A DNA stretch of 28,491 nucleotides from Calditrichota bacterium (GCA_013152765.1 JAADFT010000534.1:1-28491), one strand, 5' to 3'; positions 11,914 through 28,491 are shown, counted from the first letter of the stretch. The notes: generated by a model from the letters alone, not told the origin. Made by a program: numbers and translations.

Positions 11914-12003
11914 TTCACCACAGCGCCCCAGCTGAGCATTTTGTCACACGAAATTGACGGTAAATGCAGCGTCGAGATTACCTCCCTGCGAAACCCGACA
12001 GAA

Positions 12004-12582: not shown

Positions 12583-12696
12583 GAGCTTTCCGTTACCGAG
12601 AAAGATCGCGTACGCTTTCGAAAATCCCCCGGCGTTCCGCTCAACTGATGGTCATCCATCCAGTTTGTACGGCAGTTTCTATTCGGTGATTCAGAT

Positions 12697-13764
12697 TCAG
12701 CGTGGTTCTACAAAACCGTACACGTTTACCTTGTCTGGACCGTACTGGTTTGTCACGAAAATGAGATACTTCAAGCGAAAGCGCTTGTCCACAAATTTCC
12801 GAAAAAGCTCCAGGTTGTCGTAGTCGATTACAACTTTCGCTGGCAACCACATGTAACCAGGGCCCTCGTAAGGCCCACCAAACGGCATCAACAAATGGCC
12901 GTCTCTGTCGAAAATCTGTACATTCTCAAAAGCGGCGTCCACAACGTAAAGGTTGCCGTCACGATCCACAGCAATTCCCTTAGGCCGGGCAAATTGCCCA
13001 AGTCCTCGTCCGTAACTGCCAACCGACCGCACAAATTTCCCATCCCGGGTGTAGATCTTGACTTTGAAATCCCCAATGTCGCTCACGTAAACTCGGTCGC
13101 GAGTCACGTAGAGATTGGTGGGCGAAAACAGCCGCGCCGCCGTGTCCGCGTCGGCTTCTGGAAACGAGTTGAGTAGCTCATGCGTGAAGGCGTGGTAGAC
13201 CCGAACTTTGTGAGACTTGAGATCTGTGACCCAAATCTTGTTGTCCACCACCTGGACGTCAGTGGGTTTCATCTCCGCCGGCCCACCAATGCTGTTGACG
13301 TAGCCAAGCTGATCATCGTAAATCACCACCTGTTGACGTCCGGTGTCCGCCACGTACAAGTAACCCTTTCCGTCTACGTAGCAGTTGATCGGTTTGCGCA
13401 GAAGCCCTAAGCCACGGGGTTTGAAGTACCTAAATGTTTTCCGCTTAAGATCGATGATTTCCAGCCCTGCCACGATCGTGTCGCAGATGTAGACAACACC
13501 GTGCCGGATTGCCAATCCGTATGGCTTGATGATCGGTTTCGGAGCCTGCTTTCCGAGAATGTAGGCCAGGAATCCCGAACGGCGTCCCGTGATGTCGGTA
13601 GATTCACTGAATCGCGCCAGGAACTGAATCCGAGCTGTGTCCGGCGGGGGCGGAAAAACGATGACCTCGTTTCCGGGCGACGTCTGGGCACCTACCCGCG
13701 TGGCTACCATCAACAAAAATCCGAAGATGCCGAGCAACAGTGTAGCGAATCTATTCCGAATCAT
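12697..13764 (-). CDS. Exported NHL-repeat beta-propeller protein
   Basis: Signal peptide, FPPPPDTARIQF N-terminal motif, NHL blades (KPYGLAI, LYVADTG, FARPKGIAVDRDGNLYVVDAAFENVQIFD). Confidence 0.88.
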   Translation of the reverse strand: MIRNRFATLLLGIFGFLLMVATRVGAQTSPGNEVIVFPPPPDTARIQFLARFSESTDITGRRSGFLAYILGKQAPKPIIKPYGLAIRHGVVYICDTIVAGLEIIDLKRKTFRYFKPRGLGLLRKPINCYVDGKGYLYVADTGRQQVVIYDDQLGYVNSIGGPAEMKPTDVQVVDNKIWVTDLKSHKVRVYHAFTHELLNSFPEADADTAARLFSPTNLYVTRDRVYVSDIGDFKVKIYTRDGKFVRSVGSYGRGLGQFARPKGIAVDRDGNLYVVDAAFENVQIFDRDGHLLMPFGGPYEGPGYMWLPAKVVIDYDNLELFRKFVDKRFRLKYLIFVTNQYGPDKVNVYGFVEPR

Positions 13765-13852
13765 CCCGTCGACTCCGAATCCCGTATTTCACAGAAAAAG
13801 ATACCTGACTCTTTTCTCCGCCTGTAATCTTTAGTTGTGCCTTCTCACAACA

Positions 13853-13886
13853 AGAGCTGAGGGGAGGCCCTCCTCCCCTCAGCTCT
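13853..13886 (-). terminator. Perfect 15-bp stem-loop directly downstream of omcE-like paralog 1 (terminator/attenuator or 3' stabiliser)
   Basis: AGAGCTGAGGGGAGG (13853-13867), loop CCCT, CCTCCCCTCAGCTCT (13872-13886). The - strand tail is TGTTGT, which is only weakly U-rich. Confidence 0.7.
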
Positions 13887-13920
13887 GCTTGTTCAACGAA
13901 GCTTTTGTCGGATTGTGGAA

Positions 13921-14538
13921 CTACTTGGCGTGGCACGTCAAGCAAAGAGCGCTGCCACCGTTGCTCTTCACAAGGAGGTTAGCCACACCGCTGCCATTAT
14001 GCACATCGTGGCAGGACGCGCACTGCAGCTTGTGGCCGTACAGCATGTCCTGGTCAATGGTGCCGCCCAAGCCGGAGCTGGTAGTCGTCGGGTCGTACAA
14101 ACCACCATCCGTGCTCGCCAAGGTGGCATCGTAGGTGAACGAAACTGGGTGATCGTTGCTCAGGTCAGTACCAATCAAGTCGTTTCCATGCACGAACACG
14201 TTGCCATTGGTATTACCACCGAAATTGTCTACAGCGACTGTGCCATCGTGGCAGCTCAGACAGAGCTTGGAATTTCCGTCGGGCTGACCGACAGATGCAT
14301 CCAGGCTGGAGCTGCTGTACGGCGTAAAAGTCGCGGAAGTGACCTGATGGTTCCACAAGGGCTCCACGTTGGCTTCAGCATGGTGTGGCGTATGACATAC
14401 GATGCAGATTTCTCCCGAAGGATTCCAGCTCTCTTGGGAGAAATCGTGCGCCGACCCAGCGATGGTCTGACCCTGCGCCACCCCGAAGGCCACACATAAC
14501 ATCAGTACCACCACGGGAACGAACAGTAAACGCTTCAT
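13921..14538 (-). CDS. omcE: OmcE-like tetraheme c-type cytochrome, paralog 1 (candidate nanowire subunit)
   Basis: Signal peptide, strong RBS GGGAGGAG, 4 CXXCH. The motif series AHDFS, ICIVCHTPH, PLWN, FTPYSSSS, LCLSCHDG, IGTDLSNDHPVSF, LQCASCHDVH, GSALCLTCH matches, in order and spacing, Geobacter OmcE as I recall it. Needs alignment to confirm. Confidence 0.85.
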   Translation of the reverse strand: MKRLLFVPVVVLMLCVAFGVAQGQTIAGSAHDFSQESWNPSGEICIVCHTPHHAEANVEPLWNHQVTSATFTPYSSSSLDASVGQPDGNSKLCLSCHDGTVAVDNFGGNTNGNVFVHGNDLIGTDLSNDHPVSFTYDATLASTDGGLYDPTTTSSGLGGTIDQDMLYGHKLQCASCHDVHNGSGVANLLVKSNGGSALCLTCHAK

Positions 14539-14925
14539 CGTTCTCCTCCCTCATATTCGATTGCATTAAACCGCTGGTCTTTCACAGCCTACCCTACTCC
14601 CGCTTTACAAAATCATGGAGGATCTCTGGAGCCCCACGTACGCCAACAGCTGCGGAGAAGACATATCTTTTGGCTACGCCGCATTGGGATGACCCGTCCC
14701 TGTCAATCAGTGCGAAACAAGCTTCCCTCAGATCCACTTACCGGCCATCCCTGGCCCCTGCCGAAAAACTTGGCCTTTCCCAACTTTTAAATTTCTCAAA
14801 CAATGAGCCCCAATTCTCCACCTTCTTGAGGCTCAAATATACGCCAATTACTGGCGTGAAACAAGCCTTTTTTGAAGGATAACTTCTACATCGTTTGCCA
14901 TAGCATTCTCAACGTGATCTCAAAC

Positions 14926-14940
14926 ACAAATATTGTGCCA
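14926..14940 (-). promoter_or_regulatory. Candidate sigma-54 (-24/-12) promoter for the omcE-like operon
   Basis: The - strand reads TGGCACAATATTTGT against the consensus TGGCAC-N5-TTGC (C to T at -12). An IHF-like CATCAATCGGTTG lies at 14990-15002. The same core occurs at 22807. Confidence 0.5.
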
Positions 14941-15048
14941 CTGATACCCGTTACGCACGTCCTATTTCACCTATTCGCAACCTTAGAAACATCAATCGGT
15001 TGCGGTAACGAACTCATCTCCGCAAAAACACCGTTTGCTCCGAATGGC

Positions 15049-16743
15049 TCAATACGACTTAGGGCTGTGTCTCTTCCCGTGACACTCCAGGTAGCACTTA
15101 CCACTGAAATTTCCTGTGTCCACAAATTCCAGTCGCCCAGTACGCGGATCGGGCGATACGACGTTCAGGTCAAAGTTCATCAAATGACTGTGATTTGTCG
15201 CATCCCCCTGACTGCTGCTAATTCCATGTGGATCGTGACACACGTTGCACGGAGTGTTTTCTCGAACAATGTGCTTCTTGTGTACCCTCTTGTAGAAACG
15301 CCCCATGCCGTTGATAACCTGACTCCGATCATGACACCTGTAACACAGTTCGTAGGCCTGGTAGGACTCGCTGGTACCGTCACTGGTAATGTACTGGTAC
15401 TTCATAATGTGCGGGTAGATGGATCCATGTGGTCCCTTGGCTGCTCCCGTCCCATCACTGGCATGGCAGTCCGTGCAGTAGATGATGCTGTTCTCGTTCA
15501 GCGGTGCGATCAGGCTTGGCACATTGGTGTTCCTGCCCGGTGCCTCAATCGGATGGTAAGACGGGTTGCTGGGATCAAACTCCAGTCGGACGTTGTTTTG
15601 TTCAACTTGGCGATGAGTCGGACTGCCCGGTTTGTTTGGACTGTCCGCGTGGCAACGGTAGCAAAGTTGGTACTGGTACTGGATTTCCTGCACCGCCTCT
15701 CCTTGTGAGTCGACACCACGCACACCGAGCAGAGCCCCCGTCACGTCCGGCGCAGAGGCTTCGAGAGCCTTTGCTGCATGAGGATTGTGGCAGTCGGTAC
15801 ATTCAACATGTCGCTTAGTCACAAGGGCGGGTTCAGCTGGATCGTGGATTCCCTGGTAGGAAAAAACATCGTGACGGTAAGTCTTGGCCATCTCGGCCTG
15901 GATGTCCGTTTCGGCAACGTTGCCGTTGTGGCAAACCAGACAGTTTTCCTCTTCTGGTTTCGAATTCAACAGTCTCTCTTCACCCTCGGCGGAATGAGGG
16001 TCATGGCAGTTTTCGCACGCATTTTCCGAGACGGTGCTGTACCCTGTGTGGAACCACGGATCGTTACCCAGACCATTCCACGTTGCCGAAGAAAGCGCAT
16101 GGCTTGCGTTGTCCCATCCCTTTTTCTGGTGACAGTAACGACAGAGTGTGGAATAGCGCTGACTCGCTACCAGGAAATTGCCGTACAGGTCTTTGTGAGG
16201 GTCGTGGCAGGACGTACACTGCAACTGTCCGTCCTCCAGCTGGACCGGTCCCGAGAGAGAAGCCGGATCCGCCAGCTCTCCTTCACTTGCAGCCAGAGTC
16301 GACGAGTAGTAGAATGAAACGGGGTGATCGTCGGCCAGATTCGTCCCGAGATTTGAGCTGCCCGACGGCATCGTGGTTACGCCACCCGCAAAGGTAATGG
16401 GTGACGATCGGCTCAACACATCCCCCAGTGCCAGAGACCCGTCATGGCACGATAGACACAGAATCGAGGAACCCGTAGGCTGTCCGGGTGACGCGAGCAG
16501 GGTCGAACTGCTGTAAAGTTTGTACGTGCTCCCTGGATCTTCTCGATTCCAGAGAGGTGCCCGCCCACTGCTTCGGTGGGGTGTGTGACAGAACACGCAC
16601 ACCTCTGTCTCGCTTTCGGCCTTAATGTCGCCGGGTCCGCTCACAGAAAGATTGTGGGGCGTGTTCAGAATCGATTGTCCGGCCGCGCCAACGGGCAACA
16701 TGAGAAATGCAACCAGAAGTCGTGTACGGTCAATTCTGCGCAT
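15049..16743 (-). CDS. Large exported multiheme cytochrome (11 CXXCH plus CYLECH) with an N-terminal OmcE-like domain
   Basis: Start set at ATG 16743 (RBS GGAG; the track starts at 16764). Signal peptide. The first four hemes carry PHNLS, VCVFCHTPH, PLWNR, LYSSST, LCLSCHDG, LGTNLADDHPVSF, LQCTSCHDPH. Confidence 0.87.
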   Translation of the reverse strand: MRRIDRTRLLVAFLMLPVGAAGQSILNTPHNLSVSGPGDIKAESETEVCVFCHTPHRSSGRAPLWNREDPGSTYKLYSSSTLLASPGQPTGSSILCLSCHDGSLALGDVLSRSSPITFAGGVTTMPSGSSNLGTNLADDHPVSFYYSSTLAASEGELADPASLSGPVQLEDGQLQCTSCHDPHKDLYGNFLVASQRYSTLCRYCHQKKGWDNASHALSSATWNGLGNDPWFHTGYSTVSENACENCHDPHSAEGEERLLNSKPEEENCLVCHNGNVAETDIQAEMAKTYRHDVFSYQGIHDPAEPALVTKRHVECTDCHNPHAAKALEASAPDVTGALLGVRGVDSQGEAVQEIQYQYQLCYRCHADSPNKPGSPTHRQVEQNNVRLEFDPSNPSYHPIEAPGRNTNVPSLIAPLNENSIIYCTDCHASDGTGAAKGPHGSIYPHIMKYQYITSDGTSESYQAYELCYRCHDRSQVINGMGRFYKRVHKKHIVRENTPCNVCHDPHGISSSQGDATNHSHLMNFDLNVVSPDPRTGRLEFVDTGNFSGKCYLECHGKRHSPKSY

Positions 16744-17764
16744 GCGCGCCTCTCCGTAACTCAAATATCTGCACTCGACCGTTGTAAGTGTCGGCTACGT
16801 AGATCCTGTCATTCACATCCACAAAAATCCCCGTCGGCAACCAAAACTCCCGCCTGCCGTGGCCTGGAGACCCGAAACGGTACAGCAACACGCCTTCACG
16901 ATCAAACACTTGAACCGCATTGAAAAGTGCATCGACGAGGTAAATATTTCCGTGGCGATCCACCGAAACGCCCTTGGGCCTCGCAAAATACCCGGAAGCA
17001 TCCCCTGCCTCACCAAAGGACGAGACAACGCTTCCGTCTTCCTGCAGGATTTGCAGCCGGAAGTTCAGAGCATCGACCACATAAGCGAGACCGGTACGGT
17101 CGATCCACAGAAAATTGGGGAAATTGAATTCCCCCAGTTCCTTTCCTCGATGTCCAATTGTTCGCTTTACATGACCGGTACGGTCCAGGACAGCGATCCG
17201 GTGCGCAAGCGTCTCAACAACCCAGATTTCATCAGAGACAGGTGACCACGCAATCCCGGTCGGCCTCTGTAACTTCCGGGACACGGTCAGTTTCCTGGCC
17301 TTTTTCTCGCCCCTCCTCAACGAGAAGACGGCGTTCAGACGGGAATCCGTAAAGTAGAGTGTGCCGTCTCCTGCGACGCATGCAGAAACGAGGGAAGGAA
17401 ACTGGCGGTATTCCTCGCTTCGAACAAGCTGGTACCGCCGTTGAGAACTATCGGTTACCACGACAGCACGAAGCCCCTGATCCAGGATGAACCACGTCGA
17501 ACCATCTGCTACGAAAGCTACTGGCCGTGAGAGGGAAGGGCCTCGCTTACCGGCGATTAGCCTAAGAAGCCGATCACCCAACCTCTGGTGTTGCGCCAGG
17601 AGAGTTTGTTGACTTATTTCGCCAACCCACCGCACGGAGTAGCTTCCATCCTCCGCCACAGCGGGGTGCAGGACGAAAGTAGCCGCCAGCCACACCGCTG
17701 CTGAGCTAACCACTCGCCAGAGGCAGACCGACATACGCTCAGGAATCTCGAGCCGCAACCTCAA
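16730..17764 (-). CDS. Exported NHL-repeat beta-propeller protein
   Basis: Hydrophobic leader, NHL blades (LQRPTGIAW, GEFNFPNFLWID, FARPKGVSVDRHGNIYLVDALFNAVQVFD, FWLPTGIFVDVNDRIYVADTYNGRVQIF). The start codon is uncertain (TTG 17764 or a downstream ATG). Confidence 0.88.
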   Translation of the reverse strand: MRLRLEIPERMSVCLWRVVSSAAVWLAATFVLHPAVAEDGSYSVRWVGEISQQTLLAQHQRLGDRLLRLIAGKRGPSLSRPVAFVADGSTWFILDQGLRAVVVTDSSQRRYQLVRSEEYRQFPSLVSACVAGDGTLYFTDSRLNAVFSLRRGEKKARKLTVSRKLQRPTGIAWSPVSDEIWVVETLAHRIAVLDRTGHVKRTIGHRGKELGEFNFPNFLWIDRTGLAYVVDALNFRLQILQEDGSVVSSFGEAGDASGYFARPKGVSVDRHGNIYLVDALFNAVQVFDREGVLLYRFGSPGHGRREFWLPTGIFVDVNDRIYVADTYNGRVQIFELRRGAHAQN

Positions 17765-18388: not shown

Positions 18389-19336
18389 ATGAGGTACAAA
18401 CTCCCATTCTTGCGGAGGGCATGCCTCGCGTTCCTGGTGCTCCTGTTCTTCGCGGTACCAGCAGGTTTCCGCACCGCCGACGCGGCCAAGAAGGCCGAGA
18501 AGGTTGGCGACCAAACCTGCCTGACGTGCCACGAAGACGTCGGGAAATCTTTTGCGCACAGTGTTCACGCGCAAAAGACCACGACGAAGGGGTACACCTG
18601 CGAGGCCTGTCACGGGCCAGGGTCTGTTCACGCAGAAAGCATGGACCCGGCCGACATCTACAACCCGGCGACCGACTACAATCCGGTCGCACCCAACCCA
18701 TGTCTCACCTGTCACAACGGACCGCAGTTCACCTCAGCCACAGCTTCGGCTCACCACGAGCTGGCGGACGGCTGCAGCGACTGCCATCAGGTCCACTCCA
18801 CCGAACCGAAGCTCCTGAAGAAGCAGGGGTCCGAGCTTTGCGTCGACTGCCACAAGGACATCGGCGCCAAGTTCAGCCTCACTTCGCACCACCCGGTGAA
18901 GGAAGGCCTGATGAGCTGCACAAGCTGTCATGCCGTCCACGGTGGCGACAACAAGTTCACGCACACGGACAACAGCCGTGAGCTCTGCATCTCCTGTCAC
19001 ACGGACAAGGCTGGTCCGTTCGTCTTCGAGCACGAACCGGTGAACGAAGACTGTGGCATTTGCCACGACCCGCACGGGACCGTGGCGAACAACCTTCTGA
19101 AGCAAACCGAACCGTTCCTCTGCATGTCGTGCCATCCGGTGCACTTCCACACGGGCATTGCTGGCTACATCGGCGACTTCAAGAACCCGCTCCACCCGGA
19201 GCGCGGTGGCAAGTCGACGCTGGACGGTTTCAAGTCCGGCATGCTCACCAAGTGCACCCAGTGCCACACGCAGATTCACGGTTCGGATTTGCCGTCTGAG
19301 AGTATTTCAAGCCGCGGACGCTCTTTGACCAGATAG
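18389..19336 (+). CDS. Periplasmic decaheme c-type cytochrome, MtrA/DmsE family
   Basis: RBS GGAGGAG, signal peptide, 10 CXXCH with MtrA-type spacing, HHPVKEG, GPFVFEHEPV and C-terminal CTQCHTQIHGS motifs. Confidence 0.93.
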   Translation: MRYKLPFLRRACLAFLVLLFFAVPAGFRTADAAKKAEKVGDQTCLTCHEDVGKSFAHSVHAQKTTTKGYTCEACHGPGSVHAESMDPADIYNPATDYNPVAPNPCLTCHNGPQFTSATASAHHELADGCSDCHQVHSTEPKLLKKQGSELCVDCHKDIGAKFSLTSHHPVKEGLMSCTSCHAVHGGDNKFTHTDNSRELCISCHTDKAGPFVFEHEPVNEDCGICHDPHGTVANNLLKQTEPFLCMSCHPVHFHTGIAGYIGDFKNPLHPERGGKSTLDGFKSGMLTKCTQCHTQIHGSDLPSESISSRGRSLTR

Positions 19337-19350
19337 GAGGGCAGACGACG

Positions 19351-21519
19351 ATGAGAAGCAAACAGAGCATCGCCGTTGCAGTTGCTGCGCTCGTCGCCTC
19401 CCTCGTGCTTCTTGGCACAGGGGCGTTCGCGCAGCAGCCTGCAACGACGTGGCAGGTTTGGGTTGGCAGTCACTACTCCGGCTTGCAGGACTACCGGGAT
19501 AAGGTGGCCGAGTTCGATTGGGCCACCAACTCTCCGGAGTTCGCTGCAAAGCTGTCGCACACGTTCGGGAAGAACGTGCTCGACGTGTCGGGCCTTTACT
19601 ACGACCCGAAGCGGATGGCTCTGAACGCCTCCGCGGGGCTCGGCGGCTGGCTGAAGGCGGACGTTTCGTACCGGTCCTTCTACCGTCGACTCCAGAACGA
19701 CCTGATGGAAAACCTCGTGGTTCGCGAAGCCAAGGATCGCATTGGTTCGGCGCCGGGTGGAAAGATGATCACCCACGACAACCCAACGCCGGCTGCGACG
19801 TTTGGTTACACGCGGCGCGAGATCAACACCAAGCTCGAGGCCCGCATCCCCGGTCTCAAGATGCTGAAATTGCGCCTTGAGCACCGGTCGATCCTGGAGG
19901 ACGGCAACGAGCAACGCCTGGCAGCCATGCACTGCTCGTCGTGCCACGTGGAAGCCATCGACATGAAGGTGGACCGCAAAACGCACGACGTGGCCGCCGG
20001 TGCCGACCTGGATGTTGGGCCAGTGAGCATCTCGTACACGGCGCGAATTCGCCAGTTCCGCGATGACGCCCCAATTTACGAGATGAAGTACGACACGGCG
20101 CAACACCCGATCAACGGAAAGTTCGTGGAGGAGTTCAGCTCACGCGAACTCTTCAGCGGGCAGGTCGCGCCGATCAACAGTCCCCTGCAGGTGGACCAGT
20201 TGTCACACGTCTTCAAGGCCAAGGCTCACCTCGGAGCTGGCGAAGTCGTTGCCAGCGCCGTCACCAGCAACGCGAAGAACAAGGTAAAGAGCCTGAACCT
20301 CAAGACGAACGCCGCCAACGTCCGCCTCACCTACCCGCTTCTGCGGAAGGTGAAGGTGGTGGCGCAGGGTTCGTACGACCGCATCAAGAACGACCCCGTG
20401 TTCATCGACCTGCCACCGTGGCGAGCAGGACGGCCGGGCGGCGGTCAGAACTTCGACTGGTGGCGGTACTCCAGCCTCACCCGAACGGACATGGAAGCTT
20501 CGGCTCAGGTGCTGTACGTGCACAGCCGGGCCGTGCGCTTCTCCTTGCTGGGTGGAGTTGGCCGCATCATTCGAGACGACTACCCGTACCAGGGAGCCAA
20601 GGGCAAGACCACCACGATGAAGTTGCGGCCGGAGTTGCGGCTGAGGCCGGTGCAGGGCCTCACGGCGCGGCTGCGCTACAGCGTGGAGGTCACAGACAAC
20701 CCGTTCGCTCCGTACAACTACTTTTTCGAGCGTTCGGGTCACTCACTCACCCCTCTGCCGGGTAACACGCTGGTCTACTACTTCCAGCGCAGACAGCTTC
20801 GCTACGGGAACATCACCAGCTTGCCCACCCTGGAGCACGCTGTGGATGTGAAGCTGACGTACCGTCAGTCTTCCAGCGTGAAGCTGACGGCTGGAGTGAA
20901 GGCCAGCATTGGCACCAACAAAGACAACAAGGAGCTGAGCTTCAAGCATCGGACTCTCCAGCCGCAGTTCGGCCTCACGTTGAGTCCGAACTCGCACTGG
21001 TCCGTGTTCCTGGACTACTCCCTGATTCTTGAAGACCAGAATGGGCTCCTGTCGGTGCCAATGATGGACGGCTGAGCGGGCCACCTGTTCGGCGCCGGTG
21101 GCGCCGTTAAACACTACGGCTCGCTGTACGGGGAAACCCACTACGTCTCTCTGTCCAACTTCCTGAGCGGCGGTATTCAGTACCAGGGGCAGAAGCTCAG
21201 CGGTGGCCTGACGTTGAGCATCATGCAATCCCGAGCTGGCATGGACCCAATCTACATGCCGGATGCTCCCCACGAGGTGTTGGAATCCATCGAAGCCGCT
21301 CGCTACAACTACTACATGACCCACACTTACTCCGACCTCGGCTACACGTACGTGAATGCCGGCCTGGGCCTGGAGTACAAGCTGAACGACCGCCTGGCCA
21401 TCACAGGCAACCTGGACTACTACTACCTGCGTGATGGTCGCGGGTACGTGTTCGGCAACGAAACGGGGTCATTCTCTGTAATCCGCACCGGCTTCAAACT
21501 GTACGGTTCGGCGAAGTAA
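19351..21519 (+). CDS. Outer-membrane beta-barrel (MtrB position) with one CXXCH and a probable selenocysteine at codon 575; 722 aa
   Basis: ORFs 19351-21075 and 21214-21519 are in the same frame and separated only by TGA 21073-21075. Read-through gives ...PMMDG-U-AGHLFGAGG... and continues in beta-strands to TAA 21517-21519. CSSCH at 19933-19947. A SECIS-like hairpin follows the TGA. The barrel is well supported; Sec decoding is inferred. Confidence 0.8.
21073..21125 (+). promoter_or_regulatory. In-frame UGA plus bacterial SECIS-like stem-loop
   Basis: Upper stem CGGCGCC (21090-21096)/GGCGCCG (21100-21106) with loop GGU starting 21 nt after the UGA. Lower stem AGCGGGCC (21075-21082)/GGCUCGCU (21118-21125). 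Confidence 0.75.
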
Positions 21520-21547
21520 CCCCAAGAGCCTCAACAGAGCCTACGAG

Positions 21548-21585
21548 CAAGGCCCGGCGCACCTGGCGTCGGGCCTTGTATTTTT
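21548..21585 (+). terminator. Rho-independent terminator closing the decaheme/beta-barrel operon
   Basis: CAAGGCCCGGCGC / GCGTCGGGCCTTG stem (one G-U pair), loop ACCTG, followed by TATTTTT. Confidence 0.8.
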
Positions 21586-21939
21586 CCGGCCCTGCTCGCG
21601 CCCGAGCGCAACAACCATCCCCGTCTTGGCTGGCCGTAACCTCTTAGCGAGACAACCAAATTCGTAAAGTCCGCGGGTCCCTGCCGCTTTACGCAAAGAC
21701 CGGAGGGACAAGCTGCCCTGTGTTCTCTTACGTATCTGCCGCTCGAGCAGTTTGTCCGACGCATTCATGGATTGTAGCCGGAACTCCGCATCGTTCGTTT
21801 TCATCAGCAGCAAGTCTCGCTGTCTGGATTTGAAAAATCCCGCGTGTCGCAGCTTCGTCCCGCCCGGCCAGCACGGAAGTGTTTGATCGTCTTGTCTCGA
21901 CGGGTGCGACCTCGTTCCTGCTCCCAAGCGGCTCACAGA

Positions 21940-22374
21940 CTAAAGGTTCCCTCGCGGACCTCCCCGCCTCCCAAAGGCACGCCACATGGGGGCACCGTCG
22001 GCCTCTCTGAAAACCCATTTCTTGCCATTGAGACCAACCTGGCGGGCGATCCAGTACTCTTTACCTTTGTACTCAACCACCTGAACGGCGACGTGGAGCG
22101 TTGCCCCCGGAGTGAGCCGGAGGCCAAGGTTGTCGAGGTAAAACTGAGGTCCAAGCCGGACTTCCACTTCGTCACCCTCCGGGGTGCGGAGAACAACCGC
22201 GACGGTCTCAAAACGTCCGGCCAAGGGTTTCACCTTGATAACCCGAACAATCGTGCCCCCAAGCGTAGTGCGGCGTTTGATTTCAAAGCGGTACCTGTGA
22301 AAACGGGGTTGCGCACCAGCAGTCACAGCAAATGCCAAAAGCAGCAGCACGGCAACAGCGGATTTGCGGAACAT
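21940..22374 (-). CDS. Small exported hypothetical protein, probable OB-fold (MamS/MamX C-terminal-like pattern)
   Basis: Start set at ATG 22374 behind RBS GGAGGT. Signal peptide ending AGAQ. Pattern VRLGPQFYL...WIARQV...FREADGAPMW. The fold assignment is from recall. Confidence 0.65.
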   Translation of the reverse strand: MFRKSAVAVLLLLAFAVTAGAQPRFHRYRFEIKRRTTLGGTIVRVIKVKPLAGRFETVAVVLRTPEGDEVEVRLGPQFYLDNLGLRLTPGATLHVAVQVVEYKGKEYWIARQVGLNGKKWVFREADGAPMWRAFGRRGGPRGNL

Positions 22375-22806
22375 GACAACCACCTCCATCTTTCTTTCCT
22401 TTTCTTCCTTCGTTTGCTTCCGTTGCTTGTTCTTCTCTCCTTCACCGCAGCAGCATGGCTTTTCTTCTGCGCGAAACTGGCCTCAGGCAAGCCTGCCCTG
22501 CCACCCTTCCACTCAAAAGAAGCTCTCGCCAGCGAGTCGACCGTGGTCGCTCCGGGTCATCCACAAAACCTGTGCCAGGGCTGTGCTACGGTGACTTCGC
22601 TTTCGGCGCAAGTGCACTTGAACTAAGATGTTAGAGTCACCTGGCTCTCGGGAGCTGCGCACTGTGGCGTCGACGAAATCGTCGAAACAGACGACCATTT
22701 CGTCGAAAGCAAGTGGCGAGGCTGCTCAGTTTTTCAGAACGAAAATTCAAGCTAACGTTACAAAATTCAAAATGTTAGCCGCACGGGACGGAGCCATTGT
22801 GGAAAC

Positions 22807-22821
22807 TGGCACATCCTTTGT
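22807..22821 (+). promoter_or_regulatory. Candidate sigma-54 (-24/-12) promoter for the beta-barrel/Fe-S operon
   Basis: TGGCACATCCTTTGT. IHF-like ATTCAAAATGTTA at 22765-22777. Direct repeats TCGTCGAAA at 22679 and 22700, at a typical activator-binding distance. Confidence 0.55.
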
Positions 22822-22930
22822 AGGCCAAGAGCGCGCAGCAAGAGCTGGCGGGGTTCTCGGGTCCGCCTTTCTTCAACAAGTTCGTTCGTGGGTCATCGGC
22901 GAGCACACCACTGCTGAAGGGTCTGCTAAA

Positions 22931-24202
22931 GTGAGCAACAACGTTTCACGAATCTGGAAGATCGCAACTGTTTGCCTGGCTTTTGGCGTTGGGACGGCAG
23001 CCGCTGCTCGCGGTGCCGACCTCACCGGGCGGGTTTCCCTGCGCTGGTACCGAATGCTCAACGCCGGGGCGCCAACCGCACAGACCTTCGGCGGGTACGC
23101 GCGTCTCCAGCTGACGGACCTGATGCCCGGCCTGGGATTCAGCCTTTACGTGCGGCAGTACAGGCGCCCTACCAATCCCCTGGCCGGTTCGCCCAGGATT
23201 TACGAGCTCCAGCTTTACGGCACAAAGCTCTTCGGGTTCCTCGACCTCAACGCCGGGCGACTGAACAGTCCCTACCTCGGATCTTTTGGACTTCTGGATG
23301 GGATTGCTGCGACCGCGACGCCCGCAGAACACTTCTTTTTCGGAGCCTTCACCGGCTGGCGCCCGGACTACGTGACACTCAGCTCTGACCGTGCTTTCGG
23401 ACGCCGTGGCGTGTTCATTGGGTCAACCACGCGACACCTGGAATCTCAGATTTCCCTGATCGAGGAATCCCAGGAGAACGTGACACAGCGGCGTTTTGTC
23501 AGTCTGAGGAACAGCTTCGACCTCAAGGAAAAGTTCTTCCTGTACCAGCTCGGCGAAGTTGATTTTCAGTCTGCACTGACGGGTCAGTCGCAAAAACCTT
23601 CTTTGACGTACCTTTCCACGGACTTGCGCTACTGGCCCAACCGGACATTTCGAGCCAGTGTGGGTTACACCTACCGAACAGAATACTTCAACGTCTGGGG
23701 AGATTCTCTGCTTGCAGATTCCGCGTACGCGGCTTCGGTACGGCAGAGTTGGGATACCGGCTTTACTCTCCGGCCCTTCAAACACTGGAGATTGAGCGCC
23801 GGTTACCGTTACGGATTTCGTCGCGAGGACAACGAAACGCAAACGTACTGGTACGTCGGTCTGGCCAACAGCCGTTTCTTCGGCAAATACTGGTACGCGA
23901 ATCTCCGGTACTCGCAAAGTCGAAGCCCTTACAGCGTGAGCCGCAGTCTCTACGCCTCTCTTGATTTTTCGCTGACCCGGCGAGTTCGCCTGACGCTTAC
24001 GGATCTCTGGAACCGCTACGACGGACTTGCCACAAGCTACAGCTACGATTCGCAAGTCCAGGGGTTGAGCCTGAACTTCCTGCTCAGCAGGCGAATCCGC
24101 CTTTACCTGCATGCGGATCGCTACACTGGCCCTTACCAGGACGATCGGATGCTGTACGTAGAGGTGTCGTACCGATTCTTGCGCGACTGGAGGAAGCGAT
24201 GA
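22931..24202 (+). CDS. Probable outer-membrane beta-barrel protein
   Basis: Start set at GTG 22931 (GAAGG upstream, followed by a signal peptide ending AAARGA). Amphipathic aromatic-rich strands, C-terminal YVEVSYRF. The 101 extra upstream codons in the track look non-coding. Confidence 0.7.
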   Translation: MSNNVSRIWKIATVCLAFGVGTAAAARGADLTGRVSLRWYRMLNAGAPTAQTFGGYARLQLTDLMPGLGFSLYVRQYRRPTNPLAGSPRIYELQLYGTKLFGFLDLNAGRLNSPYLGSFGLLDGIAATATPAEHFFFGAFTGWRPDYVTLSSDRAFGRRGVFIGSTTRHLESQISLIEESQENVTQRRFVSLRNSFDLKEKFFLYQLGEVDFQSALTGQSQKPSLTYLSTDLRYWPNRTFRASVGYTYRTEYFNVWGDSLLADSAYAASVRQSWDTGFTLRPFKHWRLSAGYRYGFRREDNETQTYWYVGLANSRFFGKYWYANLRYSQSRSPYSVSRSLYASLDFSLTRRVRLTLTDLWNRYDGLATSYSYDSQVQGLSLNFLLSRRIRLYLHADRYTGPYQDDRMLYVEVSYRFLRDWRKR

Positions 24203-24948
24203 ACACGCACAAGACATTCTTGATCATGGACACACGCCGCTGCCTGGACTGCGGCAACTGTGAGCGCGCCTGCGAGCGTCGACACGGTGAGCCCCGGTTC
24301 GACCGACACGGGTTCGAGGTGGGTTACATCCGCGTGCCGACAACATGCAAAGACTGTGTGGATCCGGAATGCGTGGCGGCATGCCGTTTTCAGGCCATGA
24401 TCAAGACGCGAGATCGCCTCACCCAGCCTACCGAAATGTGCGTGGGTTGCAACCTTTGCGCGCGGAAGTGCCCATTCGGAGCCATCAACATGCTGCCGAG
24501 CCAGGTGGTCCAGGAGAAAATTCTACCCAAGAAACAGGCCAAAACCGAGCGAGGACTCTTCTTCGTCTCACGATGGCTCCAACGGGCCGACAACAATGGC
24601 AAAACCGAAGGTACACCCGCTTTGACCGCCTCGAAAGGCTCCTCTGATACCAGCCCGAAAAAGGCGAAACGGAAACGGGAGGTCTGGAAGTGTGACGCCT
24701 GCGCAGGCTACAAAAAGCGGGCTTGTGTGTACAACTGCCCCACAGGGGCTTTGCGCGAAGTTGCTCTGGATGACCTCGTCAGGGAGCTTCCGAGGGAATG
24801 GGGCCAGATCTTGGTCGAGTACCTCGCGCCCGCCTTCCTGACGCGCGAAGAGAAAGAAGCAATCCGCGAAGGGAAGTTGCGTCTGGTGGTCACCGAGGAC
24901 AAACGGATCGAGCTGGCACCCGTGGAAAAGGTTGCGCTGGTCGCGTAG
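24199..24948 (+). CDS. 4x[4Fe-4S] electron-transfer protein, DmsB/NrfC-like, no signal peptide
   Basis: 16 Cys in four groups: CLDCGNCERAC, CKDCVDPECVAAC, CVGCNLCARKCP, CDAC...ACVYNCP. ATGA overlap with the beta-barrel gene. Confidence 0.88.
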   Translation: MNTHKTFLIMDTRRCLDCGNCERACERRHGEPRFDRHGFEVGYIRVPTTCKDCVDPECVAACRFQAMIKTRDRLTQPTEMCVGCNLCARKCPFGAINMLPSQVVQEKILPKKQAKTERGLFFVSRWLQRADNNGKTEGTPALTASKGSSDTSPKKAKRKREVWKCDACAGYKKRACVYNCPTGALREVALDDLVRELPREWGQILVEYLAPAFLTREEKEAIREGKLRLVVTEDKRIELAPVEKVALVA

Positions 24949-25508
24949 GACGGATTCTTGCAACGCAAACAGGTAACATGACAGCGCAGAGTTGAATTGG
25001 AAGCGAAAAGGCAGGCCGCTTGTCATTCGGCGTACGGGGAGAATCTGAAAGTGGCAAGGGACGGGGAGACACCCACGGGTAAATGTTGCCTTTCTGTCCC
25101 CAGCCATTTTCCCCTTTCTGCTTCCCGAACCGAACCTGCAGATCGCCTCTTTCGCAAGTCCAGTGTGGACCAGCGCTGCGTAGATCTACTCGTGACGTGC
25201 AAACAACCTCGGCGACGGGCCAGAGTTCTGCCTACACTCCCGGGGCGTAATGGATCAGGATCCGGGCAAAGTAGCTTGCGGCTTTAGCAAGCAACCTGTA
25301 CCCGGCCGGGCAGAATCACTGTTTCAGCAAACAGGGAATCCTGGCTAAACCCGAAGAGAGGACTCTTCTCGCGTGGGCGGGTAGCCACGTTTTGTGGGTG
25401 CGTCAGGTCTACTTTCACCCAGCATCGGCCTGGCGTTCGCCAACAGATTTTGCGGACTGAAATGGAGTTGGTGGCAATTTGAACAACGCTTGTTAAGGAG
25501 GGTTGTCC

Positions 25509-26636
25509 ATGCGGTTCAAACAGTTTTCACTCGGACTTCTGCTCACGCTGGTCAGTTGGTCGGTTTCCAGTGCGGCCACCACGCTCAAAGGCGAAGTCAC
25601 TGGCAGACTCACTGCCGCACGAAGTCCCTACCACGTGGTCGACGACCTCATCGTCCCCGCGGGCGACAGTTTGATCATTGGACGCGGCGTTGAGCTGCGT
25701 TTCGACAGCGCCAAAGTTCTCGAAGTCCGCGGCACGTTACGGATTCTTGGCACACAGCGCGCCCCCGTGCTGCTCACCTCAGCGTGGGCTCGTCCCAAAC
25801 CTGGCGCGTGGAAAGGGATTTACTTCACCAACAGCGCCAACGACCGCTCTGTCGTCCAACACGCGATCATTCGCCACGCACTTTTTGGGGTGCGGATCGT
25901 CTCCTGTTCGCCAACTCTTTCGAACACCCGAATCGAAGACGCGGGAGAACACGGCATCTGGCTCAAAACCAGCTGGGCACGTCTTGAAAGCAACCGCATT
26001 CTGCGCAGCAAGGAAGACGGTCTGCAAGCAACGAACTTTCAGGGCCTTTTGCTGAACAACCTGGTTCAGGAAAACGGTGACGACGGCATCGATCTGCGTC
26101 GGTCCACGTGCAAAGTGAAGGGAAATCGTCTCATCGCCAATCACGACGACGGGATCGTTCTGGACAGTTGCGAGGCTGTGGTAGTGCACAACACGCTCGA
26201 ACGCAACGGCGACGACGGCGTGCTGATTCGCGCCGGGCGTCCGGTCGTGGCCTACAACCTTTTCGTCCGCAACCTCTACGGGATCTTCGTTTACGGGCAT
26301 GCGGCTCCGATTCTCCAAAACAACACGCTGGTTCAAGGAACGTACGGTCTGTACGTCCGCGACCACTCCATCGCTCAGGTGATCAACTCCATTTTGTGGG
26401 ACAACGCTACTCAGATCGAAGTCGATTCCCTGAGCACCGCCAATGTGCGCCACAGCGTGGTACAAGGTGGCTACCCGGGGTCTGGCAATTCGAGTCAAGA
26501 TCCCAAGTTCGTCAGTCAAACCGATTTTCACCTGGCGCCCGGTTCCCCCTGCCTCAAGGGAGCAGACCCCTCAGCGCCGTACCACGATCCGGAAGTGAAG
26601 CAGTTGTTCATCGGTGCACTTGGACTGAAACGGTGA
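25509..26636 (+). CDS. Exported right-handed parallel beta-helix repeat protein (pectin-lyase-like fold)
   Basis: ATG 25509 behind RBS AAGGAGG, signal peptide, SPYHVVDDLIVPAG and WKGIYF motifs, roughly 22-24-aa repeats (N.GDDGI/V...N.I..N), C-terminal DPKFV..DFHL.PGSPC. Confidence 0.85.
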   Translation: MRFKQFSLGLLLTLVSWSVSSAATTLKGEVTGRLTAARSPYHVVDDLIVPAGDSLIIGRGVELRFDSAKVLEVRGTLRILGTQRAPVLLTSAWARPKPGAWKGIYFTNSANDRSVVQHAIIRHALFGVRIVSCSPTLSNTRIEDAGEHGIWLKTSWARLESNRILRSKEDGLQATNFQGLLLNNLVQENGDDGIDLRRSTCKVKGNRLIANHDDGIVLDSCEAVVVHNTLERNGDDGVLIRAGRPVVAYNLFVRNLYGIFVYGHAAPILQNNTLVQGTYGLYVRDHSIAQVINSILWDNATQIEVDSLSTANVRHSVVQGGYPGSGNSSQDPKFVSQTDFHLAPGSPCLKGADPSAPYHDPEVKQLFIGALGLKR

Positions 26637-26644
26637 ACGGGGCC

Positions 26645-28491
26645 ATGAAAGGGCAAATCAAAACCACGCTGCTGGCGTGGACTGGGCTCCTGCTGCTGTT
26701 CTACGCCACAACAGGACGAGCCCAGCAGTGGGTCTCGCCGGGGCCCCTTCACAAAGTCCACGCCAAGTACGAAGGCATCACCCACTGTACTCTTTGCCAC
26801 GAGCTCGGCAAACGCGTGACAAACCAGAAGTGTTTGCAGTGCCACGACCGGATCGCGTTGAATATCCAGCAAAACATTGGGTACCACGCGAAAAACGCCG
26901 ACAAACCGTGCACGGAGTGCCACATCGAACACAAAGGGCGTGACTACCCCATCATCGAGCTGGACCGCCAGACCTTCGACCACGCGGAAACCGGCTTCAA
27001 ACTGGAAGGTAAACACAAAGAGCTCGAGTGCGAGGCTTGTCACACCAATCCCCGCAGTTTTCTCGGGCTGAGTCAGCAGTGCGTTCGTTGCCACGACGAT
27101 TTCCACGAAGGAACGCTCGGCCTGAAGTGTCAGGATTGCCACTCGTTCGACAGCTTCCGACCGAGCACGTTCAAACACAAGCCCTCTCAACTACAGGCTC
27201 AAGGAGCGCACAAAGACCTCGCCTGCGAAGCCTGCCACCCGGATCGCGTCTACGCGGGCCTGGACAGCTCATGTGTCGCCTGCCACGAAGATCAGCACAA
27301 GGGCCTTCTCGGCGACCGGTGCGAAAAGTGCCACACCACGGAAGATTTCACCCGAACCCGATTCGACCACAACCGGGACACCAAATTTCACCTGACGCTC
27401 ACCCACGCGACGCTCGACTGTGACGTTTGCCATGCCGGCGACTACGCCGTCGTGCCCGACACCAGTTGCCAGCTCTGCCACGAGGACGAACACAAAGGAC
27501 GTTTCGACGAAAATTGCAACACGTGCCACGAGCCAAACACGTTTGCTTTGACGACATTCACGCACGAGAAGCCTTTCTTCGAACTCCAGGGATTTCACAA
27601 GACACTTGACTGCGAAGCCTGCCACACGCCTGGCGACTTTGCGCCCGTCAGCCAGCGCTGCGAAGACTGCCACGAAGACGAACACAAAAACTGGATGAGC
27701 GTGCAGCGCTGCGACAGCTGCCACACACAGACGGCTTTCCGCCCCAGCACGTTCCGCCACGACTCCACGAAATGGAAACTCGGTGGCAAACACACCGAAC
27801 TGGATTGCCAGGTTTGTCACCTCCCCAACGATTTTCACCAGCAGGGACAGGCGTGCAGCAACTGCCACGAGGACGAACACGGCGGGCAATTGAGCAGCAA
27901 CTGCCAGGAGTGTCACTCATTCAGCGCTTTCAGCCCGAGCACCTTCAAACACAAGAAAGACGACTTCCAGATGCAGGGTAAGCATGCTGAGCTGAAGTGC
28001 GAGAAGTGTCACGCAGACCACCGGTACTCCCTGCTCAAGTCCAACTGTACCAGTTGTCACGAAGACAGCCACCATGGCGACTTAGGGCCGAATTGTCAGG
28101 AGTGCCACAATTTCACCAGCTGGACGGACGTTTTCTACGACCACAACCAGACGAATTTCCCACTGCGCGGCCAGCACCAGCACCTTCGCTGCGAAGAGTG
28201 CCACAAGCAGGGCAAATTCGAGAGCACGCCGACCCGGTGCATGTTCTGCCACCAGGACCCGCACGACAAGACGTTTGGCACGGACTGCGAGTCGTGCCAC
28301 AACGAAGAGGGTTGGGACCTGATCACCTTCGATCACAACACCACTGGTTACGAGCTCCTCGGCCAGCACCAGACGCTGGACTGCGTTGCGTGCCACACAG
28401 AGCTCAAGCCAATTCCCATGCCCAGTTCCTGCTACTCGTGTCACCGGGGTGACTACGAGCACACGACCTCACCCGACCACAAGGCTCTCGG
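26645..28491 (+). CDS. Giant exported multiheme c-type cytochrome built from tandem triheme repeats (3'-truncated by the window end)
   Basis: My translation from ATG 26645 (MKGQIKTTLLAW...) is open for 615 codons to the window end. Signal peptide, SPGPLHKVH, 26 CXXCH. Missing from the ORF track because no stop codon is in the window. Confidence 0.92.
   Translation, partial: MKGQIKTTLLAWTGLLLLFYATTGRAQQWVSPGPLHKVHAKYEGITHCTLCHELGKRVTNQKCLQCHDRIALNIQQNIGYHAKNADKPCTECHIEHKGRDYPIIELDRQTFDHAETGFKLEGKHKELECEACHTNPRSFLGLSQQCVRCHDDFHEGTLGLKCQDCHSFDSFRPSTFKHKPSQLQAQGAHKDLACEACHPDRVYAGLDSSCVACHEDQHKGLLGDRCEKCHTTEDFTRTRFDHNRDTKFHLTLTHATLDCDVCHAGDYAVVPDTSCQLCHEDEHKGRFDENCNTCHEPNTFALTTFTHEKPFFELQGFHKTLDCEACHTPGDFAPVSQRCEDCHEDEHKNWMSVQRCDSCHTQTAFRPSTFRHDSTKWKLGGKHTELDCQVCHLPNDFHQQGQACSNCHEDEHGGQLSSNCQECHSFSAFSPSTFKHKKDDFQMQGKHAELKCEKCHADHRYSLLKSNCTSCHEDSHHGDLGPNCQECHNFTSWTDVFYDHNQTNFPLRGQHQHLRCEECHKQGKFESTPTRCMFCHQDPHDKTFGTDCESCHNEEGWDLITFDHNTTGYELLGQHQTLDCVACHTELKPIPMPSSCYSCHRGDYEHTTSPDHKAL
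26975..28491 (+). repeat. Intragenic tandem repeat, 192-195 bp (64-65 aa), 7 complete units plus 1 partial
   Basis: Units start at 26975, 27170, 27362, 27557, 27752, 27944, 28136 and 28328. Consensus F.H....F.L.G.H..L.CxxCH..CxxCH.D.H.G....CxxCH. Diverged at the DNA level. Confidence 0.9.

What the first reader, a model, noticed from the sequence alone, without database searches (positions are those of the whole stretch)
19351..21519. Probable selenocysteine- and heme-containing outer-membrane porin partnered with an MtrA-type decaheme
Seen: a single in-frame TGA interrupts an otherwise continuous 722-codon barrel. The 46 codons between it and the next annotated ATG are stop-free and strand-like. 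A GC-rich hairpin with a GGU loop lies 21 nt downstream. The true stop is followed by a terminator, and the barrel carries its own CSSCH. Established: bacterial SECIS elements lie immediately 3' of the UGA with a G early in the apical loop at about this spacing; classical MtrB porins have neither heme nor Sec. I recall an annotation family named 'GSU2204 family CXXCH-containing (seleno)protein' next to a decaheme, so the family may be catalogued, but I know of no functional characterisation. Inference: U575 (MMDG-U-AGH) could ligate the barrel heme or form a redox site.
Basis: partly seen in the sequence, partly recalled or inferred. Interest (0 to 1): 0.85.

Follow-up and report, generated by a model that had tools for sequence, protein, structure and literature searches.

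The report
Selenocysteine haem porin gene (OmcL family)
The "interrupted" outer-membrane barrel gene is one intact gene whose in-frame UGA almost certainly encodes selenocysteine. The barrel also has its own haem-binding motif and pairs with a ten-haem cytochrome, but this OmcK/OmcL (GSU2203/GSU2204) family is already catalogued as a predicted selenoprotein, although nobody has tested what the selenium or the haem do.

Summary
Window 19351-21519 (+) is a 722-codon frame with a single TGA at codon 575, an MHCSSCH motif, a hairpin after the TGA and a strong terminator after the true stop.

The TGA is a selenocysteine codon:
- It sits at the same aligned column (AMMDG-U-[AG][GA]H) in 26 homologues from at least five phyla.
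- Distant relatives have Cys there.
- The hairpin is kept by compensatory changes, always in codon phase at +23 or +26.
- The genome has selA, selB, selD and tRNA-Sec.
- TGA is otherwise the normal stop in this window.
- Independent vent-metagenome contigs carry the same TGA.

The protein scores above the curated cut-off of NCBIfam NF041027 ("GSU2204 family CXXCH-containing (seleno)protein"). The model is a 26-strand barrel whose best structural match is MtrB. The upstream gene is a GSU2203 (OmcK) family decahaem. The two genes are adjacent in every homologous locus with enough upstream sequence.

The family is listed in a 2026 selenoproteome review and is named the "OmcKL conduit" in the ANME-partner literature. 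This scan has also met it several times on other genomes. The finding is therefore correct but not new. The roles of the selenium and the barrel haem remain open.

The parts
18389..19336 (+). Decahaem c-type cytochrome, OmcK/GSU2203 family (MtrA/DmsE-like). 315 aa, ten CXXCH motifs, a signal peptide and no free Cys in the mature protein.
   Evidence: NF041028 scores 332.6 bits (cut-off 325) and TIGR03508 DmsE family 213.8 bits (cut-off 192.2). Sequence. A homologue lies directly upstream of the barrel in every homologous locus with enough upstream DNA.
19351..21519 (+). One gene for a 722-residue OmcL/GSU2204-family outer-membrane barrel (selenoprotein). It starts 14 nt after the decahaem stop codon.
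   Evidence: NF041027, 446.8 bits against 350. AF2 model: about 26 strands, pLDDT 78, pTM 0.71. Best PDB match is MtrB, 6r2q_B, E = 1.7e-20, TM 0.66/0.72.
19351..19431 (+). Signal peptide (MRSKQSIAVAVAALVASLVLLGTGAFA | QQP).
   Evidence: Read from the sequence. The model shows helix 2-20 followed by a low-pLDDT linker. The cleavage site is inferred.
19927..19947 (+). MHCSSCH, the c-type haem attachment motif (C195, C198, H199). It lies at the tip of a long hairpin between strands 172-192 and 200-222.
   Evidence: C195, C198 and H199 are invariant in 34 of 34 aligned relatives, including distant ones without Sec or Cys. Strand positions.
21073..21075 (+). UGA codon 575, read as selenocysteine, in the motif MMDG-U-AGH. 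It lies in the loop between strands 550-572 and 588-612.
   Evidence: TGA occupies the same column in 26 homologous loci. Cys is found there in L051, P0068, P0111 and P0141. Contigs of three runs show no difference at this place.
21075..21125 (+). SECIS element. The apical hairpin is at 21090-21106 (7-bp GC stem, GGU loop at 21097-21099), enclosed in this copy by a lower stem (21075-21082 with 21118-21125).
   Evidence: Fold. The hairpin is present in all 27 copies at +23 or +26 nt from the U of UGA. 96.7% of cells are paired, 5 of 6 pairs change on both sides, the loop G is invariant, and 0 of 500 shuffles reach the observed score.
21517..21519 (+). True stop codon (TAA).
21547..21585 (+). 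Intrinsic terminator (14-pair stem with 10 GC pairs, then a T-run) that ends the two-gene unit.
   Evidence: The hairpin is also visible.

Best explanation
Genes 18389-19336 and 19351-21519 form a two-gene porin-cytochrome conduit of the OmcK/OmcL (GSU2203/GSU2204) family.

Shown:
- The barrel gene is intact.
- UGA575 has every sequence and genomic hallmark of a selenocysteine codon read by SelB through the conserved hairpin 14 nt downstream.
- The protein is a signal-peptide-bearing barrel of about 26 strands that resembles MtrB. It carries an invariant CXXCH and one Sec, and it is always paired with an MtrA-like decahaem.

Inferred:
- The decahaem threads into the barrel from the periplasm, as MtrA does in MtrB.
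- The cytochrome c maturation system attaches a haem covalently at C195/C198/H199 in the periplasm before the barrel is inserted.
- The haem motif and the Sec each sit at the tip of an unusually long beta-hairpin: strands 7-8 and 21-22, each about 9 residues longer than its neighbours.
- Both hairpins are on the long-loop side of the barrel, which is the cell-surface side by standard outer-membrane protein topology. They lie on roughly opposite walls.
- The barrel haem therefore most likely acts as an eleventh, outermost haem that replaces a separate MtrC-type surface cytochrome.
- The selenolate sits at or next to this electron exit. It is either the sixth haem ligand or the residue that reacts with the extracellular partner (mineral, sulfur or selenium species, or a partner cell's cytochrome).
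For: Frame, motif and TGA.

Family: NF041027 at 446.8 bits against 350, NF041028 at 332.6 against 325.

Sec machinery in the same genome: selB and tRNA-Sec on contig 429, selA (cut by a contig end) on contig 193, and selD with its own TGA on contig 158.

TGA column:
- The TGA column and about 147 conserved codons after it recur in 26 loci from Calditrichia, Ignavibacteria, Zixibacteria, Aminicenantes, KSB1 and the window's own lineage.
- Dozens of database representatives end exactly at residue 574 because gene callers stopped at the TGA.
- Cys occupies the column in distant full-length relatives.

SECIS covariation.

TGA is the ordinary stop of 12 of 17 ORFs in the window.

Independent contigs keep the TGA.

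Fold: 26 strands, with MtrB as the top PDB hit.

The decahaem lies directly upstream in every locus that has the upstream DNA.

Cysteine content: the mature barrel has no Cys beyond the CXXCH, and mature OmcK has none outside its ten CXXCH motifs. A selenenyl-sulfide redox pair within the module is therefore excluded.

Literature:
- The OmcKL conduit is highly expressed in the ANME partner HotSeep-1 (PMC10553843).
- GSU2203 and GSU2204 are induced on haematite and magnetite (PMC4070692).
- The family is listed as a selenoprotein in PMC13188914.
Against: - No selenium incorporation, haem attachment or electron transfer has been measured for any member of the family.
- The AF2 model is least confident exactly at the two sites (pLDDT below 50 at 195-197 and 582-584). 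The tools give no coordinates, so the Sec-to-haem distance is unknown.
- Pfam MtrB_PioB does not match this protein even at E = 10, so kinship to MtrB rests on fold alone.
- The complex prediction with the decahaem could not be run.
- More distant CXXCH barrels lack Cys or Sec at this column (K, S or G). The selenium is therefore not needed for the basic barrel-haem function.
Confidence: 0.82

Rival explanations
1. Sec575 is the distal (sixth) axial ligand of the barrel-bound c-type haem. This would give a natural His/selenolate haem at the outer end of the conduit. It is a specific version of the main explanation, kept apart because it is unproven.
For: - Across 28 Sec- and Cys-type relatives, the only invariant side chains able to ligate haem iron are H199 and U/C575. 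H41, H178, H194, H588 and M636 are all lost in the Cys-type clade.
- Both residues sit on the tips of two extra-long hairpins on the same side of the barrel.
- No partner Cys exists for a redox couple.
- His/Cys-ligated c-haems are known in sulfur enzymes such as SoxAX, TsdA and DsrJ (from my own knowledge).
Against: - The two hairpins are 14 strands apart in a 26-strand barrel, so on opposite walls. They would have to bend over the pore to meet.
- Both tips have low pLDDT and no distance could be computed.
- H252 and H286 are conserved in 76% and 85% of relatives and could be the distal ligand instead.
- Relatives with K, S or G at the column still keep the CXXCH.
Confidence: 0.2
2. Sec575 is a surface-exposed catalytic selenolate that is fed by the haem chain but does not ligate it. 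It would reduce or bind a chalcogen or metalloid substrate (polysulfide or S0, selenite, tellurite, arsenic species) or a metal at the cell surface.
For: - The Sec lies in a glycine-flanked turn (DG-U-[AG][GA]) at the tip of a protruding hairpin.
- Hosts are vent and sediment anaerobes, and near-identical contigs come from hydrothermal vent metagenomes.
- Another Geobacter porin-cytochrome cluster with a Sec cytochrome (ExtKL, next to the porin ExtI) is linked to selenite and tellurite reduction (PMC5877670).
Against: - No substrate is known.
- No resolving thiol is present.
- No conserved accessory gene accompanies the cassette.
Confidence: 0.3
3. The TGA is a real stop. The locus would then encode a truncated 574-residue protein plus a separate small ORF, or be a pseudogene.
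For: Gene callers annotate it this way. Most database entries end at residue 574, and some C-terminal pieces are filed as separate proteins.
Against: - The 147 codons after the TGA are conserved in frame in 26 loci, with no conserved restart codon.
- A 21-strand fragment cannot close the barrel, and it lacks the C-terminal strands.
- The conserved hairpin shows covariation.
- Cys-containing full-length relatives exist.
Confidence: 0.03
4. The TGA is a sequencing or assembly error, or the organism reads TGA as an ordinary amino acid (genetic code 4 or 25).
For: The genome is a fragmented metagenome bin (556 contigs, 86% complete).
Against: - Contigs of three runs from two studies carry the same letters.
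- Genomes at 93%, 80% and 40% identity keep the TGA.
- 12 of 17 ORFs in the window end in TGA, and reading through two of them runs straight into further stops.
- Six homologues use TGA as the terminal stop of the same gene.
Confidence: 0.01

Closest known systems
OmcL / GSU2204 with OmcK / GSU2203 of Geobacter sulfurreducens (NCBIfam NF041027 and NF041028); the 'OmcKL conduit' of Ca. Desulfofervidus (HotSeep-1) and Seep-SRB2 (PMC10553843)
   Same: - The same two families, both above curated cut-offs.
- The same gene order.
- The same CXXCH in the barrel.
- The same Sec position that gives the family its '(seleno)protein' name.
- It is listed as a selenoprotein family in PMC13188914.
   Different: - The host is a vent-associated bin labelled 'uncultured Cytophagia', in a small phylum where only 5 of 167 sampled genomes have the gene.
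- Its nearest relatives outside the genus and family are in Calditrichia (44-46% identity).
- The OmcKL paper does not mention the Sec or the barrel haem, and it treats OmcK as the extracellular partner.
MtrA-MtrB of the Shewanella MtrCAB complex (PDB 6R2Q); also MtoAB and PioAB
   Same: - A barrel of about 26 strands, with MtrB as the best structural match.
- A DmsE/MtrA-type decahaem encoded just upstream.
- Presumably the same arrangement of a cytochrome threaded inside a sheath.
   Different: - No sequence-level match to Pfam MtrB_PioB.
- The barrel has its own haem motif and a Sec.
- No MtrC-type surface cytochrome belongs to the conserved cassette.
Cyc2 fused cytochrome-porins of iron oxidisers
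   Same: A single outer-membrane polypeptide that combines a beta-barrel with one c-type haem motif (from my own knowledge).
   Different: - In Cyc2 the haem motif is in an N-terminal domain ahead of a much smaller barrel. Here it is in a loop between strands 7 and 8 of a barrel of about 26 strands.
- Cyc2 has no decahaem partner and no Sec.
ExtKL (GSU2937-2936) selenocysteine multihaem cytochrome in the ExtHIJKL cluster of Geobacter (PMC5877670; NF040886)
   Same: It is another predicted selenoprotein inside a porin-cytochrome gene cluster of the same kind of organism.
   Different: There the Sec is in a soluble pentahaem cytochrome, not in the barrel, and the proteins are unrelated.

Membership tests
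NCBIfam NF041027, GSU2204 (OmcL) family CXXCH-containing (seleno)protein | HMM score above the curated cut-off | tested here: met
   446.8 bits against a cut-off of 350. Residues 15-574 match profile positions 2-580 of 580.
NCBIfam NF041027, GSU2204 (OmcL) family CXXCH-containing (seleno)protein | A single CXXCH inside the barrel | tested here: met
   MHCSSCH at residues 193-199. C195, C198 and H199 are invariant in 34 of 34 relatives.
NCBIfam NF041027, GSU2204 (OmcL) family CXXCH-containing (seleno)protein | Sec (or Cys) right after the end of the part-1 model, followed by a conserved C-terminal part | tested here: met
   TGA at codon 575, and 147 further codons conserved in 26 loci.
NCBIfam NF041027, GSU2204 (OmcL) family CXXCH-containing (seleno)protein | An adjacent GSU2203 (OmcK) family decahaem | tested here: met
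   NF041028 at 332.6 bits against 325. It lies upstream in every locus that has the upstream DNA.
Bacterial selenoprotein (SelB/SECIS-dependent UGA decoding) | An in-frame UGA with conserved coding sequence on both sides, and Cys in some homologues | tested here: met
   26 homologues have TGA, four have Cys.
Bacterial selenoprotein (SelB/SECIS-dependent UGA decoding) | A hairpin just 3' of the UGA with a G early in the apical loop | tested here: met
   A stem of 5-7 bp with a 5-nt loop [AC]G[GU][UG][GA], starting 23 or 26 nt from the U of UGA in 27 of 27 copies. 96.7% of cells are paired, 5 of 6 pairs covary, and the loop G is invariant. Caveat: the alignment was anchored on the best hairpin of each copy.
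Bacterial selenoprotein (SelB/SECIS-dependent UGA decoding) | selA, selB, selC and selD in the genome | tested here: met
   SelB 361 bits, SelA 331 bits (gene cut by a contig end), SelD 376 bits (with its own TGA), tRNA-Sec 69.3 bits next to selB.
Bacterial selenoprotein (SelB/SECIS-dependent UGA decoding) | Selenium actually present in the protein | not testable with these tools
   Needs 75Se labelling, ICP-MS or peptide mass spectrometry.
MtrB/PioB outer-membrane porin (Pfam PF11854) | Match to the Pfam model | tested here: not met
   No hit even at E = 10. One 47%-identical homologue (P0007) carries a precomputed PF11854 hit.
MtrB/PioB outer-membrane porin (Pfam PF11854) | A 26-strand barrel fold that sheathes an MtrA-type decahaem | tested here: inconclusive
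   The fold criterion is met: about 26 strands, and 6r2q_B is the top hit at E = 1.7e-20.
MtrB/PioB outer-membrane porin (Pfam PF11854) | A partner surface decahaem (MtrC/OmcA type) in the module | tested here: not met
   Only the decahaem-barrel pair is conserved across loci. Cytochromes with MtrC-like domains exist elsewhere in the window, but they are not part of the cassette.
Cyc2-type fused cytochrome-porin | An N-terminal haem domain ahead of a small barrel, with no separate periplasmic cytochrome | tested here: not met
   The CXXCH is at residue 195, between strands 7 and 8 of a barrel of about 26 strands, and a decahaem partner is present. The Cyc2 architecture is recalled from memory.

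The most novel reading that the evidence does not exclude
The selenocysteine is the sixth ligand of the barrel's own covalently bound haem. This would be the first natural His/selenolate-ligated haem. It would sit at the cell-surface mouth of a minimal two-protein conduit and do the job of a separate MtrC-type surface cytochrome. The evidence does not exclude this. U/C575 and H199 are the only invariant iron-ligating side chains across the Sec and Cys clades, and both lie on long hairpins on the same face of the barrel.
Probability: 0.2. Interest if true: 0.8.

Novelty: new member of a known kind. Interest (0 to 1): 0.35.

Why it matters
For annotation, the two "fragments" (574 aa plus a small C-terminal ORF) should be merged into one selenoprotein gene. 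Most database entries of this family are truncated at the UGA.

For biology, the family is widespread in vent and sediment anaerobes and in ANME partner bacteria. It is the only known outer-membrane barrel predicted to carry both a covalent haem and a selenocysteine, and none of its chemistry has been tested.

Geobacter sulfurreducens has the family's founding member and is genetically tractable, so the question can be addressed directly at the bench.

This window adds a new lineage. It also adds comparative evidence: SECIS covariation, Sec/Cys/none subfamilies, and the placement of both sites on two long hairpins. It does not add a new kind of system.

Tried and rejected
- **Rfam scan:** the scan of 20900-21700 at a permissive threshold gave no SECIS family hit, only weak terminator-like sRNA matches. 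Rfam has no fitting bacterial SECIS model for this element, so the hairpin was tested by comparative covariation instead.
- **Complex prediction:** I did not try again in another form, so there is no verdict on binding.
- **PDB sequence search:** a profile of the family found nothing. Only the fold search links it to MtrB.
- **Pfam MtrB_PioB:** no match at E = 10.
- **Other TGA-ended cytochrome genes in the window:** I checked whether 8846-9901 and 15049-16764 are also read-through selenoproteins. They are not, because further stops follow.
- **Literature:** a search for 'OmcL' mostly returned an unrelated acronym. The GOS paper that the 2026 review cites for this family does not mention cytochromes or outer-membrane proteins, so the real source of the classification appears to be the NCBIfam model.
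- **UAGH as a motif:** rejected, because H578 is V, I or Q in several homologues.

Full report
**1. Observation**

On the + strand an ORF starts at ATG 19351 and runs 574 codons to a TGA at 21073-21075. The same frame then continues for 147 codons to TAA at 21517-21519. No other stop interrupts it, while the reverse strand in the same interval is riddled with stops.

The product begins with a typical signal peptide and contains MHCSSCH at residues 193-199.

Fourteen nucleotides after the TGA lies cggcgcc-GGU-ggcgccg (21090-21106), enclosed by a lower stem. The 68-nt stretch folds to -34.8 kcal/mol, z = -2.83 against shuffles.

A 14-pair GC-rich stem and a T-run follow the true stop at 21547-21585.

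**2. What it is**

- NCBIfam places the protein in NF041027, "GSU2204 family CXXCH-containing (seleno)protein", at 446.8 bits against a curated cut-off of 350. The model ends exactly at residue 574, the residue before the TGA.
- The upstream gene (18389-19336, ten CXXCH motifs, signal peptide) is NF041028, "GSU2203 family decaheme", at 332.6 bits against 325. It also passes the DmsE/MtrA-type decahaem model.
- Pfam gives only a sub-threshold generic barrel hit, and MtrB_PioB does not match even at E = 10.
- An AlphaFold2 model built on 25 read-through homologues (pLDDT 78, pTM 0.71) is a barrel of about 26 strands.
- Its best PDB match by a margin of ten orders of magnitude is MtrB of the Shewanella Mtr complex, 6r2q_B (E = 1.7e-20, TM 0.66/0.72).

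**3. The TGA is a selenocysteine codon**

(a) The genome holds SelB, with tRNA-Sec (69 bits) next to it on contig 429. It also holds SelA (cut by a contig end) and a SelD that has its own in-frame TGA.

(b) Whole-genome and contig searches found 28 related loci in Calditrichia, Ignavibacteria, Zixibacteria, Aminicenantes, KSB1 and the window's own lineage.
- Twenty-six of them have one in-frame TGA at the same aligned column, in the motif AMMDG-U-[AG][GA]H, followed by about 147-157 conserved codons.
- One is frameshifted.
- One, at 22% identity, has Cys there.

(c) Of 150 listed cluster representatives from 1.8 billion proteins, dozens end precisely at query residue 574, and others are orphan C-terminal pieces. 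This is what results when gene callers stop at a Sec codon. Full-length distant relatives have Cys (P0068, P0111, P0141) or, further out, K, S or G at the column.

(d) All 27 copies have a 5-7-bp stem with a 5-nt loop [AC]G[GU][UG][GA], starting 23 or 26 nt from the U of UGA, so always in codon phase.
- 96.7% of cells are paired.
- Five of six pairs change on both sides (GC, CG, AU and UA all occur).
- The second loop base is an invariant G.
- 0 of 500 shuffles reach the observed covariation, and slid registers collapse to 25-71% paired.
- Caveat: I anchored the alignment on the best hairpin in each copy, which favours pairing. The fixed phase and the conserved loop were not selected for.

(e) TGA is the ordinary stop of 12 of 17 ORFs in the window. 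Reading through two other TGA-ended cytochrome genes runs straight into further stops. Six homologues end the same gene with TGA. Global recoding is therefore excluded.

(f) Contigs assembled from three public runs in two studies, one labelled hydrothermal vent metagenome, cover 21073-21075 without a difference.

**4. Context**

The decahaem lies directly upstream of the barrel in every related locus that has the upstream DNA (27 loci; two are cut by contig ends). It is better conserved (41-96% identity) than the barrel. No other window gene is a conserved neighbour.

Within the window's phylum only 5 of 167 sampled genomes have it. The same-class copies (40% identity) are less similar than the Calditrichia copies (44-46%), which suggests horizontal spread.

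**5. How it most likely works**

*Shown.* This is a secreted MtrB-like barrel with an invariant CXXCH and a Sec, always paired with an MtrA-like decahaem.

*Inferred from the MtrAB precedent.* The decahaem inserts into the barrel from the periplasm.

*Inferred from the secondary structure of the model.*
- The CXXCH lies at the tip of the hairpin formed by strands 7-8 (172-192 and 200-222).
- The Sec lies in the loop of the hairpin formed by strands 21-22 (550-572 and 588-612).
- Both hairpins are about 9 residues longer per strand than their neighbours.
- Both are odd-to-even connections, like all the long loops. By standard outer-membrane protein topology, with both termini periplasmic, they point to the cell surface.
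- They are 14 strands apart, which puts them on roughly opposite walls.

*Cysteine content.* The mature barrel has no cysteine besides the CXXCH, and mature OmcK has none outside its haem motifs. A selenenyl-sulfide redox couple within the module is therefore excluded.

*Conserved ligand candidates.* Across the Sec and Cys clades, the only invariant side chains that could ligate iron are H199 and U/C575. H41, H178, H194, H588 and M636 are invariant only in the Sec clade. H252 and H286 are conserved in 76% and 85% of relatives.

*Best reading.* The barrel haem is an eleventh, outermost haem that replaces a separate surface cytochrome. The selenolate either ligates it (about 0.2) or is the reactive exit residue next to it (about 0.3).

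*Limits.* Neither option can be decided here.

**6. What is known**

- GSU2203 is OmcK and GSU2204 is OmcL. Both are induced in G. sulfurreducens on haematite and magnetite (PMC4070692).
- Homologues form the "OmcKL conduit", which is expressed four-fold above OetABI in the ANME partner HotSeep-1. That paper mentions neither the Sec nor the barrel haem (PMC10553843).
[quoted passage not shown] The GOS paper it cites does not describe the family.
- I found no biochemical or structural study.
- This scan has reached the same conclusion on at least six other genomes.

**7. Verdict**

The gene is an ordinary member of an already catalogued, uncharacterised family in a new lineage. The chemistry of the haem plus selenium is an open and testable question, but it is not a discovery of this window.

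Noticed in passing
window 7646-17764 (- strand): A second cytochrome island: multihaem ORFs of 207, 351, 192, 205 and 571 aa (the last with an MtrC-like domain), two NHL beta-propellers, and a 671-aa barrel-like ORF (9898-11913) with no Pfam or NCBIfam hit. It is probably another porin-cytochrome cluster. The TGA stops of the two genes read through (8846-9901 and 15049-16764) are real stops.
   Followed up: partly
window 22628-28489 (+ strand): A 524-aa ORF with an outer-membrane-protein-like C-terminus and no family hit. It overlaps a 4Fe-4S protein (24199-24948). A NosD-like beta-helix (25503-26636) and a c7-type multihaem of at least 794 aa (26108-28489) follow, and the last runs off the window.
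   Followed up: partly
window 21844-22626 (+): The 260-aa ORF listed here is Arg/Pro/Ser-rich with no family hit and is probably not a gene. The roughly 1.1 kb between the terminator and 22628 has no convincing gene.
   Followed up: no
G000:C158:1704-2630 and G000:C429:437-2506: The genome's SelD has its own in-frame TGA, so it is likely a Sec-containing SelD. tRNA-Sec lies immediately next to selB.
   Followed up: no
window, all main ORFs: TGA is the stop of 12 of 17 main ORFs. In this organism TGA is therefore both the commonest stop and a Sec codon.
   Followed up: yes
L023-L051 and genomes G001, G004, G009, G147: The cassette is patchy: 5 of 167 genomes of the phylum have it. Its copies in Calditrichia are more similar than those in the same class, which suggests horizontal transfer. 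Near-identical contigs come from hydrothermal vent metagenomes.
   Followed up: partly
proteins P0101, P0133, P0149, P0114, P0152, P0116: Distant full-length barrels keep the CXXCH but have K, S or G instead of Sec or Cys. The Cys-type clade lacks five residues (H41, H178, H194, H588, M636) that are invariant in the Sec-type clade. The Sec/Cys switch therefore comes with a wider remodelling of conserved histidines.
   Followed up: partly
window 2-7390 (+): Unrelated housekeeping genes at the left end: two ABC exporter fusion proteins, a GH92 mannosidase and an aldo/keto reductase.
   Followed up: no
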